A program made the position numbers. 64,000 nucleotides of DNA from Escherichia coli. GTDB taxonomy: Bacteria; Pseudomonadota; Gammaproteobacteria; Enterobacterales; Enterobacteriaceae. Location: assembly GCF_013315695.1 (NCBI RefSeq), contig NZ_CP054353.1. The stretch is one strand, 5' to 3'. The first letter of the stretch is position 1, and the number at the start of each line of letters is the position of its first letter. Shown in pieces: positions 57,701-60,700 of this stretch.

Positions 57701-60700
57701 ACAAAATACCGGCGGCGACCGGAATACCAATGCTGTTGTAGATAAACGCACCGAGCAGGTTCTGCTTCATATTGCGCAGCGTTGCGCGGGAAATCGCGAG
57801 CGCATCCGCAACGCCCATCAGGCTATGGCGCATCAGGGTAATCGCCGCGGTTTCAATGGCAACATCACTGCCGCCACCCATCGCAATGCCGACATCCGCC
57901 TGGGCCAGCGCTGGCGCGTCGTTAATGCCGTCGCCCACCATTGCCACCTGACGTCCTTCACTTTGCAGGCGTTTAATCGCTTCGGCTTTACCGTCCGGCA
58001 GCACCCCGGCGATCACCTCATCAATCCCGGCTTCTTTGGCGATCGCATTGGCGGTGGTTGGGTTATCCCCGGTCAACATCACCAGACGATATCCCGCTTT
58101 ATGCAGGCGTTGCAGCGCCGCCACGCTATCACTACGCAATGGATCGCGTACAGCCAGCAGGGCTACTGCTTTCCCGTCAACCGCCAGCAGCACAGGCGTT
58201 GCCCCTTGCGATGCCTGAGCTGAAATATCTGCCTCAATCGCTTTAGTATCAACTTGCTGGTCATTTAACAGCGCCTGATTGCCCAGCAATAACGCATGAC
58301 CTTCAGCTTCACCGCTCACGCCCAGCCCGCGCAATGTGCGGAAACCGTTGACCTGCGACAGCTGCATATCGCCTGCTTTATCGAGGATCGCTCGTGCCAG
58401 CGGATGGCTGGAACCTTGCTCCAGTGCCGCCGCCAGACGCAATGCCTGCGCTTCATCAACATCAGCAAACGTTTTCACTGCGACAACCTGCGGTTTACCT
58501 TCGGTCAGCGTCCCGGTTTTATCGAACACTACGGTATCGAGCGTACTGGCGCGTTGCAGCGCGTCGGCGTCCCGTACCAGCACGCCAAACTCAGCCGCCC
58601 GCCCGACGCCGGAAATAATCGACATCGGCGTCGCCAGCCCCAGCGCACACGGACAGGCAATAATCAGCACCGTGGTGGCAATCACCAGGGTATAGACAAT
58701 CTGCGGTGCCGGACCAAAGAAATACCAGATTGCCGCACTGACAAGCGCAATAACCACTACTACCGGCACAAATACGGCTGAGATTTTATCCGCCAGTTGG
58801 CCGATTTCAGGCTTGCTGCTCTGGGCCTGGCGCACCATGCGAATGATCCGTGACAGCGTAGTATGGCTGCCGACCGCACTGGCACGAAACAGCACACTGC
58901 CGTCCTGTACCACTGTCCCGGCATGGACGCTATCGCCTTCGCCTTTTTGCTGCGGGATAGGTTCGCCCGTCAGCATCGCTTCATCCAGCCACGCTTCGCC
59001 TTGAGTAATCTCACCATCTACCGGCACACGGTCGCCGGTCGTCAGGCGCAGTAACATACCTGGCTGAACATCTGCCAGCGGCACGTTTTTTTCACCTTCG
59101 TCGGTGACCAGGCGCGCCGTCGGTGGGGTTAAATCGAGTAATTTCTCCAGCGCCTTAGAAGAACGCTGACGCGCGCGCGCTTCCAGCATATGGCCGAGAT
59201 TGATCAGACCGATAATCATCGCGCTGGCTTCGTAATAAAGATGTCGCGCTTCCATCGGGAACCACTGCGGCCACAGGTTGACGCTCATCGAATAGAGCCA
59301 CGCCACGCCAGTACCCAGCGCCACCAGCGTATCCATCGTCGCTGCACCGTTCAGCAGGCTTTTCCATGCGCTGCGGTAAAAATGCCCGCCGGCGAAAACC
59401 ATTACCGCCAGGGTTATCAGGCCGATAACCAACCACAGGCTGCGGTTGTCGGCGGTGACCATCATGTTATCGCCGATCATCCCCCAGACCATCACCGGGA
59501 TACCCACCGCCAGTGCGACAATCGCCTGCCAGCGGAAGCGCTTCATCGTAGCGACGGCGGTTTCTTGCTGGCGCTCGCGGCGTTTAGCGTCATCTTCAAT
59601 CGCTTCCGCGCCGTAGCCCGCTTTTTCCACCGCCTGCACTAAATCTTGTGGGGAGGCACTGCCCATCACCAGCGCAGTACGCTCCGCCAGGTTTACCCGT
59701 GCCTGAGTGACGCCCGGTACGCTTTGCAGCGCATTTTGTACGCGGGTGACACAGCTGGCGCAGCTCATGCCGCTCAGCAGCAACTGCTGGCTGTCATCGT
59801 CATCGGCGGTCGCTGCCGGAAGCGCCTCAGAAACCGCTGTCAGTGCTTCCGACGGGATTGATGACTCCGCCAGCGGTTTAGCCTTTGGGTGGCTTACAGA
59901 TGCGTCATAACCCGCTTGTTTGATGGTTTCGATCAGCTGTTCTGCACTGGCAGTCCCGGTAACGTGCGCTTCAGTGACAGACACATCCGCCTGCTCAACA
60001 TCCGGGCGCTGTTCGAGACTTTCTTTCACGCGTTTAACGCAGTGACCGCAGGACAGGCCGTCCAGGGTCAGGTCGATAGTTTGTGACATAAAACACTCCT
60101 TTTAAGACAGTTTTGACTGGCTGTGATAAAGGTTAAACCTTCCAGCAAGGGGAAGGTCAAGAAATTAATAAACCAGGCGGGTAAAAGTCCGTAAAGATTA
60201 AAAAATCGGCTCGATTTGCATCAGGATTAGACATTTATCTCTTTGTTTTCCTGTAGTTAAGTTGCGGGTGCTAAGTTAAATCAGGATGTCTGAAAATCGG
60301 CACCGGGGTGAGGAATTACCTCCCGCATCTATAAAAAGGAGTTAACAAAAGATGTTAGATGCAAACAAATTACAGCAGGCAGTGGATCAGGCTTACACCC
60401 AATTTCACTCACTTAACGGCGGACAAAATGCCGATTACATTCCCTTTCTGGCGAATGTACCTGGTCAACTGGCGGCAGTGGCTATCGTGACCAGCGATGG
60501 CAACGTCTATAGTGCGGGTGACTGTGATTACCGCTTTGCGCTGGAATCCATCTCGAAAGTCTGTACGTTAGCCCTTGCGTTAGAAGATGTCGGCCCGCAG
60601 GCGGTACAGGACAAAATTGGCGCTGACCCGACCGGATTGCCCTTTAATTCAGTTATCGCCTTAGAGTTGCATGGCGGCAAACCGCTGTCGCCACTGGTAA

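What the first reader, a model, noticed from the sequence alone, without database searches (positions are those of the whole stretch)
60117..60160. copA promoter retains a CueR operator although cueR is not in its usual neighbourhood in this window
The CCTTCC-N7-GGAAGG dyad sits between the -35 and -10 of the copA promoter, so copper-responsive control is presumably intact. The regulator gene is not found downstream of ybaT within the window, consistent with an insertion having displaced it.
Basis: partly seen in the sequence, partly recalled or inferred. Interest (0 to 1): 0.25.

Follow-up and report, generated by a model that had tools for sequence, protein, structure and literature searches.

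The report
Standard copA copper promoter; cueR displaced
This is the textbook copper-sensing promoter of the E. coli copA gene, unchanged; its regulator gene cueR lies about 25 kb away, beyond a known adhesin-secretion gene cluster (OI-28) that the laboratory strain K-12 has lost by deletion, so the finding is ordinary.

Summary
CCTTCC-N7-GGAAGG sits at 60138-60156. It is unique in the window and appeared in 0 of 100 shuffles. It lies in a minus-strand promoter: TTGACC, a 19-bp spacer, then TAACCT, upstream of copA (57585-60089). The operator and both hexamers are identical to E. coli K-12 PcopA, the promoter used in the CueR structural studies.

cueR is not in the window. After ybaT come an intact terminator, an AT-rich stretch and a TolC-family gene that runs off the window end.

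Two complete genomes are 100% identical to the last 25 kb of the window. In both, the order is ybaT, TolC, a 20-kb giant adhesin, ABC transporter, HlyD, cueR. cueR is intact there (one substitution, D103N, relative to K-12) and starts 25.6 kb past ybaT. This cluster is O-island 28 of O157:H7.

The "insertion" reading is probably backwards. The 124-bp ybaT-cueR spacer of K-12 contains a frameshifted stump of the hlyD 3' end. The same scar occurs in phylogroups A and B2 and in another Escherichia species. K-12's compact layout is therefore a deletion derivative.

CueR acts in trans, so copper control of copA should be normal. Interest is low and the biology is already known.

The parts
57585..60089 (-). 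copA, the Cu(I)-exporting P-type ATPase (834 aa)
   Evidence: ORF. Pfam finds 2 HMA domains plus E1-E2_ATPase and Hydrolase. It differs from K-12 CopA at 10 residues. PGAP calls it copA in the identical genome.
60130..60135 (-). -10 hexamer TAACCT of PcopA
   Evidence: Read directly from the sequence. Identical to K-12. It lies 2 bp from the CueR box, as stated for wild-type PcopA in PMC8169799.
60136..60154 (-). 19-bp promoter spacer, the over-long spacer typical of MerR-type promoters
   Evidence: Length counted. The generic sigma-70 scan, which allows spacers of 16-18 nt, finds no promoter here, as expected. The 19-bp spacer is described in PMC8169799.
60138..60156 (.). CueR box, the inverted repeat CCTTCC-N7-GGAAGG
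   Evidence: Unique in the window, with 0 of 100 shuffles matching. This is the consensus quoted in PMC8169799. Identical to K-12.
60155..60160 (-). -35 hexamer TTGACC of PcopA, overlapping the CueR box by 2 bp
60090..60129 (-). copA initiation region and 5' UTR. The start site is inferred near 60122-60124, and the Shine-Dalgarno AAGGAG lies at about 60097-60102.
   Evidence: Sequence. There is one extra T/A relative to K-12 in the run 60100-60103, upstream of the Shine-Dalgarno core. The start site was not mapped here.
60352..62579 (+). glsA (60352-61284) and ybaT (61287-62579), the glutaminase/permease pair lying between copA and cueR in E. coli
   Evidence: ORFs. PGAP names in identical genomes.
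62591..62623 (+). Intrinsic terminator after ybaT: a 10-bp stem followed by a T-rich tail
   Evidence: Terminator scan. The fold gives -16.4 kcal/mol with z -4.4, whereas the K-12 counterpart gives -7.6 with z +0.9. The left breakpoint of the K-12 deletion falls at about 62607-62609, inside this hairpin.
62614..62916 (+). AT-rich (about 32% GC) upstream region of the secretion/adhesin cluster; absent from K-12
   Evidence: GC content. No homology to the K-12 spacer. Two weak promoter-like sites, no more than chance.
62917..64000 (+). 5' part (361 codons) of the TolC-family outer-membrane gene, first gene of the OI-28-type T1SS/giant-adhesin cluster; runs off the window end
   Evidence: Pfam OEP, E = 4.8e-38. 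PGAP names it 'TolC family outer membrane protein', 1356 nt in the identical genome. Same position as ECs_0540 in Sakai.

Best explanation
Window 60130-60160 (minus strand) is the unmodified CueR-dependent promoter of copA. A sigma-70 promoter with a 19-bp spacer is too long for RNA polymerase to use efficiently. A CueR dimer sits on the CCTTCC-N7-GGAAGG repeat within that spacer. When loaded with Cu(I), Ag(I) or Au(I), CueR bends and under-twists the DNA so that the -35 and -10 hexamers line up, and copA is transcribed. CueR is supplied in trans from a cueR gene about 24 kb beyond the window's right edge, at the far end of a ~25.5-kb type I secretion/giant adhesin cluster (the OI-28 homologue: TolC, SiiEA-type adhesin, ABC transporter, HlyD). 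That cluster lies between ybaT and cueR in about 18% of complete E. coli genomes. The compact ybaT-cueR layout of K-12 arose from the island-bearing layout by one old deletion, which left an hlyD 3' stump and removed the ybaT terminator. Shown here: the promoter anatomy and its identity to K-12; the absence of cueR from the window; the presence of an intact cueR in the identical genomes; the island gene content; the hlyD stump. Inferred: copper inducibility in this strain, and the age of the deletion.
For: - **Promoter.** The dyad is unique and non-random. The -35 hexamer, 19-bp spacer and -10 hexamer were read directly. The operator and hexamers are identical to K-12; the whole copA-glsA intergenic region differs by 1 indel and 1 SNP, both outside the promoter. 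This intergenic region is present at >=95% identity in 5422 of 5426 complete E. coli genomes.
- **Mechanism from the literature.** The CueR core site CCTTCC-N7-GGAAGG, the 19-bp spacer, the 2-bp gap to the -10 and the cryo-EM bending mechanism are described in PMC8169799.
- **cueR location.** cueR is not in the window. Window 39001-64000 is 100% identical to NZ_OZ547117.1 and NZ_LR898874.1. Both carry ybaT, TolC, siiEA, ABC transporter, HlyD, cueR in that order.
- **cueR integrity.** CueR there differs from K-12 only by D103N and keeps Cys112 and Cys120. It matches PDB CueR chains at E ~1e-88 and the Pfam MerR domains.
- **Island identity.** O157:H7 Sakai has the same layout, and the OI-28 gene list is given in PMC12758282.
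- **Deletion scar.** The K-12 spacer translates to VVAVDIRTGKK, a frameshift, then VLEYLLKPFNKAQEALRER. The HlyD C-terminus reads GMVATVDIRTGKKSVLDYLLKPFNKAQEALRER*. PGAP annotates the stump as a pseudogene. The breakpoint is identical in K-12, PA45B and Escherichia sp. MOD1-EC7003.
- **Distribution.** 4459 genomes carry the scar-type junction and 958 the island-type junction. Intact hlyD lies next to cueR in Escherichia sp. E1V33, and hlyD continues upstream of the K-12 breakpoint to the locus edge in E. whittamii.
- **Trans action.** CueR supplied from a plasmid activates a chromosomal PcopA-lacZ fusion (PMC5329002).
Against: - No expression data exist for this strain, so copper induction is inferred.
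- The source assembly itself was not available. cueR was located in two genomes that are 100% identical over the last 25 kb of the window, not in the window's own record.
- Island GC is 58.9% against 51.8% for the window. An AT-rich left junction is also what a horizontally acquired block can look like, so an ancient acquisition before the deletion is not excluded.
- E. albertii and E. fergusonii did not match the junction pattern, so the state at the root of the genus is unresolved.
- The E. whittamii locus (L008) is too short to show a complete hlyD.
Confidence: 0.9

Rival explanations
1. A horizontally acquired genomic island inserted between ybaT and cueR in this lineage and pushed cueR away.
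For: The segment is absent from K-12 and from about 82% of complete E. coli genomes. The OI-28 paper speaks of 'acquisition' (PMC12758282). Island GC is 58.9% and the left junction is 32% GC.
Against: Every K-12-type junction sampled carries the hlyD 3' stump with the same breakpoint and the same frameshift. An empty, never-occupied site would not contain it. No integrase, transposase, tRNA or direct repeats flank the cluster in the annotated genomes. The cueR start codon overlaps the hlyD stop (ATGA), a tight junction that is also present in other Escherichia species.
Confidence: 0.07
2. The operator is an orphan: cueR has been lost or inactivated in the source genome, and copA runs only at its basal level or under another regulator.
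For: cueR is not in the 64-kb window.
Against: Both genomes that are 100% identical to the last 25 kb of the window carry an intact cueR (WP_001026752.1) with the metal-binding cysteines. The cueR region is matched in 5424 of 5426 complete E. coli genomes.
Confidence: 0.02
3. The operator works as usual, but the supply of CueR is wired differently. In island-bearing strains cueR is the last, translationally coupled gene of the secretion operon and is insulated from glsA-ybaT by an intact terminator. In K-12-type strains the deletion destroyed that terminator, so acid-induced glsA-ybaT transcription can read into cueR.
For: The ATGA overlap of the hlyD stop and the cueR start. The terminator is intact in the window and lost in K-12. 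No consensus sigma-70 promoter lies just upstream of cueR in either layout. An older prediction placed ybaS, ybaT and ybbI (cueR) in one operon (PMC1526738). The cue genes are reported to rise together with ybaST under acid stress in MG1655 and an ETEC strain (PMC9628877).
Against: No transcript data were examined. The ~95 bp upstream of cueR is conserved in both layouts and could hold a weak constitutive promoter that dominates in both. CueR is needed only in small amounts and is turned over by proteolysis (PMC5329002), so modest transcriptional differences may have no phenotype.
Confidence: 0.2

Closest known systems
E. coli K-12 PcopA, the CueR (MerR-family) dependent copA promoter
   Same: The -35 TTGACC, the 19-bp spacer, the CCTTCC-N7-GGAAGG box, the -10 TAACCT, the 2-bp gap between box and -10, and the position upstream of copA are all base-for-base identical.
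   Different: Only one extra A/T in the 5' UTR (60100-60103) and one SNP at 60288, nearer to glsA. The regulator gene lies 25.6 kb rather than 124 bp downstream of ybaT.
O-island 28 (OI-28) of EHEC O157:H7: tolC28, rtxA28, rtxB28, hlyB28, hlyD28
   Same: Same chromosomal slot between ybaT and cueR, same gene order (TolC-type OMP, giant repeat adhesin, ABC transporter, HlyD-type adaptor), and the same ATGA junction with cueR.
   Different: In the genomes identical to the window the adhesin is one 20.4-kb ORF (siiEA) rather than two ORFs as in Sakai, and the ABC transporter gene is annotated as frameshifted. Only the first 1.08 kb of the cluster lies inside the window.
Salmonella copA-cueR divergon
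   Same: Same regulator, the same type of operator and a 19-bp spacer promoter (PMC1526738).
   Different: In Salmonella, cueR sits directly beside copA without glsA-ybaT or the secretion cluster. E. coli has 2.5 kb (K-12 type) or 28 kb (this window's type) between them.

Membership tests
CueR-dependent MerR-type promoter (PcopA) | Inverted repeat CCTTCC-N7-GGAAGG | tested here: met
   Exact match at 60138-60156, unique in the window, 0 of 100 shuffles. Consensus as quoted in PMC8169799.
CueR-dependent MerR-type promoter (PcopA) | Sigma-70 -35 and -10 hexamers separated by a 19-bp spacer that contains the repeat | tested here: met
   TTGACC, 19 bp, TAACCT. Not picked up by a scan limited to 16-18 nt spacers.
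CueR-dependent MerR-type promoter (PcopA) | Located directly upstream of a Cu(I)-exporting P-type ATPase gene | tested here: met
   The copA ATG is at 60089, 41 bp downstream of the -10. Pfam finds HMA x2 and E1-E2_ATPase.
CueR-dependent MerR-type promoter (PcopA) | Cognate CueR with Cys112 and Cys120 encoded in the same genome | tested here: met
   Not in the window. Intact in both genomes that are 100% identical to the last 25 kb of the window, with D103N as the only difference from K-12. The window's own assembly was not available.
CueR-dependent MerR-type promoter (PcopA) | Cu(I)/Ag(I)/Au(I)-dependent activation of transcription | not testable with these tools
   Needs a reporter or transcript assay. 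Inferred from sequence identity to the K-12 promoter that has been characterised biochemically and structurally.
OI-28-type T1SS / giant adhesin cluster | TolC-family outer-membrane component as the first gene, immediately downstream of ybaT | tested here: met
   Window 62917-64000. Pfam OEP, E = 4.8e-38. Same slot as Sakai ECs_0540.
OI-28-type T1SS / giant adhesin cluster | Giant repeat adhesin, ABC transporter and HlyD-type adaptor following, with cueR at the distal end | tested here: met
   These lie outside the window. They were seen in the two identical genomes. HlyD_3 and HlyD_D23 Pfam hits. The ABC gene is annotated as frameshifted there.
OI-28-type T1SS / giant adhesin cluster | Functional secretion and adhesion | not testable with these tools
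   Shown for EDL933 in PMC12758282. Doubtful here because of the ABC frameshift.

The most novel reading that the evidence does not exclude
The position of cueR is not neutral. In OI-28-bearing strains such as this one, cueR is the terminal gene of the secretion operon, translationally coupled to it through an ATGA overlap with hlyD, and it is insulated from glsA-ybaT by an intact terminator. In K-12-type strains the ancient deletion removed that terminator and fused cueR to the acid- and copper-induced glsA-ybaT unit. The basal CueR level, and hence the set-point of the copper response, would then be wired to different signals in the two allele classes: RstA/Ca2+ in one, GadE/W/X/acid in the other. 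As a corollary, published OI-28 and hlyD28 deletion mutants may carry polar effects on cueR.
Probability: 0.2. Interest if true: 0.35.

Novelty: already known. Interest (0 to 1): 0.1.

Why it matters
It matters little for copper biology, because the promoter is the canonical one and the regulator is present and acts in trans. Two small points are useful.

First, the ybaT-cueR layout of the K-12 reference is a deletion scar: an hlyD stump plus a lost ybaT terminator. "O-island 28" is therefore better described as lost from most E. coli than as gained by EHEC. This affects how presence/absence of this adhesin system is read in comparative genomics.

Second, the cueR start codon overlaps the hlyD28 stop codon. 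Engineered deletions of OI-28 or hlyD28 should therefore be checked for effects on cueR.

Tried and rejected
- **Generic sigma-70 scan of 60000-60400.** It found no promoter. It says nothing against PcopA.
- **tblastn of CueR against the whole window.** Only chance hits, so cueR has not been relocated within the 64 kb.
- **Promoter scans upstream of cueR in the island-bearing and K-12 layouts.** No plus-strand consensus promoter in either. The source of cueR transcription stays unresolved.
- **Rfam scan of 54000-64000.** Only sroB/ChiX was found. No RNA family lies in the copA-glsA region or next to the IS110 transposase.
- **Degenerate junction pattern against 100,044 species genomes.** Only four Escherichia records matched. 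E. albertii, E. fergusonii and E. marmotae were not recovered, so the state at the root of the genus could not be set. The E. whittamii locus is too short upstream (95 bp) to show a full hlyD.
- **Orphan operator (cueR lost).** Considered and rejected; refuted.
- **Recent mobile-element insertion.** Considered and rejected. The cluster has no mobility genes at its ends, and the empty sites carry a stump.
- **The 777-bp length difference in the next-closest genomes.** I first suspected these genomes lacked the IS110 element. AF14 has it at the same place, so the difference lies elsewhere in the 25 kb. I did not pursue it.

Full report
**1. Observation**

Window 59800-60500 was read directly. 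copA is the 834-codon minus-strand ORF at 57585-60089. Pfam finds two HMA domains, E1-E2_ATPase and a HAD hydrolase domain.

Upstream of copA, the minus strand reads TTGACC, then TTCCCCTTGCTGGAAGGTT (19 bp), then TAACCT:
- -35 hexamer: 60160-60155
- spacer: 60154-60136
- -10 hexamer: 60135-60130

The inverted repeat CCTTCC-N7-GGAAGG occupies 60138-60156. It is the only occurrence in the 64-kb window, and none of 100 dinucleotide-preserving shuffles produced one.

The repeat overlaps the -35 hexamer by 2 bp and ends 2 bp before the -10. A generic sigma-70 scan limited to 16-18 nt spacers finds nothing here, as expected for a promoter with a 19-bp spacer.

**2. What it is**

Aligned to E. coli K-12 MG1655, the whole copA-glsA intergenic region shows only two differences: one extra T/A in the copA 5' UTR (60100-60103) and one SNP at 60288. 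The operator and both hexamers are unchanged. The same intergenic region is present at >=95% identity in 5422 of 5426 complete E. coli genomes.

The literature held here gives CCTTCC-N7-GGAAGG as the CueR core site and describes the 19-bp spacer and the 2-bp distance between box and -10 in wild-type PcopA. It also gives the mechanism. A CueR dimer bends and under-twists the over-long spacer so that sigma-70 RNA polymerase can engage both hexamers, helped by a contact with the sigma non-conserved region (PMC8169799). This element is therefore the textbook PcopA and not a variant.

**3. Where cueR is**

CueR has no match in the window; the best tblastn E-value is 1.9. Downstream of ybaT (61287-62579) the window contains, in order:
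- a strong intrinsic terminator at 62591-62613, with 10 pairs and a T-rich tail (-16.4 kcal/mol, z -4.4);
- an AT-rich stretch of 32% GC;
- from 62917, an ORF that runs off the window end and matches Pfam OEP at E = 4.8e-38.

Window 39001-64000 is 100% identical to two complete genomes, NZ_OZ547117.1 (isolate AF3) and NZ_LR898874.1 (MSB1_4I). In both, the order is copA, glsA, ybaT, TolC-family OMP, siiEA (a 20.4-kb BapA-related adhesin), a type I secretion ABC permease/ATPase (annotated as frameshifted), an HlyD-family adaptor, then cueR.

cueR starts 25,583 bp after the ybaT stop. That corresponds to about 24 kb beyond the right end of the window. Its ATG overlaps the hlyD stop codon as ATGA. 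The encoded CueR differs from K-12 CueR only by D103N and keeps Cys112 and Cys120. It matches the crystallised CueR chains at E ~1e-88.

O157:H7 Sakai has the same layout, ECs_0540-0544 followed by cueR. This is O-island 28, recently described as a T1SS/RTX-adhesin system with the genes tolC28, rtxA28, rtxB28, hlyB28 and hlyD28 (PMC12758282). That paper does not mention ybaT or cueR.

**4. Insertion or deletion?**

In K-12, ybaT and cueR are 124 bp apart. That spacer is not neutral DNA. After about 38 bp shared with the window, its remainder aligns to the 3' end of the island's hlyD.

Translated, the K-12 spacer gives VVAVDIRTGKK in one frame. After a 1-nt loss in an A-run, it gives VLEYLLKPFNKAQEALRER in another frame. 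The intact HlyD C-terminus reads GMVATVDIRTGKKSVLDYLLKPFNKAQEALRER*. PGAP annotates this stump as a "frameshifted; incomplete; missing N-terminus" pseudogene in strain PA45B.

The left breakpoint falls inside the ybaT terminator hairpin, at about window 62607-62609. The hairpin is consequently lost in K-12. The same breakpoint and the same frameshift occur in K-12, in the ST131 strain PA45B and in a separate species-level genome, Escherichia sp. MOD1-EC7003.

Among complete E. coli genomes, 4459 carry the scar-type junction in one piece and 958 carry the ybaT-TolC junction.

A degenerate search for the hlyD-end/cueR-start junction across species representatives returned four Escherichia records:

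| Record | Locus | State next to cueR |
|---|---|---|
| Escherichia sp. E1V33 | L007 | intact hlyD |
| E. coli representative SCPM-O-B-8794 | L005 | near full-length hlyD, frameshifted at the A-run |
| E. whittamii | L008 | hlyD extends past the K-12 breakpoint to the locus edge |
| Escherichia sp. MOD1-EC7003 | L006 | stump |

No integrase, transposase or tRNA flanks the cluster.

The simplest account is that the cluster stood next to cueR in an ancestor, and that one old ~25.5-kb deletion produced the compact allele that now predominates. The window retains the older state. At a deeper level, Salmonella has copA and cueR as a direct divergon without glsA-ybaT (PMC1526738). So DNA was gained between copA and cueR at some point in the Escherichia lineage, or lost in Salmonella.

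**5. Consequences for function**

CueR acts in trans. The classic assay uses plasmid-borne cueR and a chromosomal PcopA-lacZ fusion (as described in PMC5329002). Distance from copA therefore does not matter, and copper control of copA should be normal. This is inferred and was not measured.

A residual question is how cueR itself is transcribed. Neither layout has a consensus promoter just upstream of cueR. In the island layout cueR is coupled to hlyD and shielded from glsA-ybaT by the terminator. In K-12 the terminator is gone, which fits an older prediction of a ybaS-ybaT-ybbI operon. It also fits the reported co-induction of the cue genes with ybaST under acid stress (PMC9628877). I rate a physiologically meaningful difference at about 0.2.

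**6. Comparison, novelty and verdict**

The operator is a member of the PcopA/CueR class on every sequence criterion tested; only induction is untested. The intervening DNA is a member of the OI-28 cluster type. Everything central to the finding is already known. The one mildly new point is that the reference K-12 arrangement is a deletion scar, which PGAP already half-captures as a pseudogene.

Interest is 0.1.

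Noticed in passing
window 55843-57588: The segment between ybaP and copA is not homologous to K-12 or Sakai, which carry ybaQ there. YbaQ has no tblastn hit in window 55000-58000. The segment holds an IS110-family (PGAP: 'RNA-guided') transposase at 56076-57101. The full segment occurs in only 173 of 5425 complete E. coli genomes. Most genomes match only its two ends, as an unannotated ~270-bp repeat present about 3 times per genome, so the IS appears to sit inside a repeat element. No Rfam family, such as a bridge RNA, was detected.
   Followed up: partly
window 54894-54977 (+): sroB/ChiX small RNA between ybaK and ybaP; Rfam RF00368, 81 bits. Ordinary, as in K-12.
   Followed up: yes
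window 62591-62613; L002 10880-10905: The ybaT intrinsic terminator is intact in the window. In K-12 the deletion breakpoint cuts it, so K-12-type strains may read through from ybaT into cueR.
   Followed up: partly
L001 27782-29940; L009 8855-11013: In both genomes identical to the window the T1SS ABC permease/ATPase gene is annotated as frameshifted, so the secretion system may be inactive in this lineage. The adhesin is a single 20.4-kb ORF here but is split into two ORFs in Sakai.
   Followed up: no
L001 31520-33940: A second small segment absent from K-12 lies between cueR and ybbJ: two hypothetical proteins, a YadA-family autotransporter adhesin and another hypothetical protein, at 44% GC. 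It is also present in Sakai and in the otherwise K-12-type strain PA45B.
   Followed up: no
L006 6700-6940: In Escherichia sp. MOD1-EC7003, glsA appears internally deleted: only GlsA residues 1-46 and 266-310 are matched upstream of an intact ybaT.
   Followed up: no
L005 7362-7430: The GTDB representative E. coli genome (SCPM-O-B-8794) has a near full-length hlyD next to cueR. It shifts frame near codon 370, at the same A-run where the K-12 stump is frameshifted. This suggests a slippage hot spot.
   Followed up: no
window 60100-60103 and 60288: These are the only differences from K-12 in the copA-glsA intergenic region: one extra T/A in the copA 5' UTR upstream of the Shine-Dalgarno core, and a C>T SNP nearer to glsA.
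   Followed up: yes
window 59878-60089 (by homology with K-12 record positions 511168-511379): K-12 annotates a second copA product, the soluble Cu(I) chaperone made by programmed frameshifting and joined from 2 pieces. Whether the slippery site is conserved in the window was not checked. The only CopA difference in the first 70 residues is V38I.
   Followed up: no
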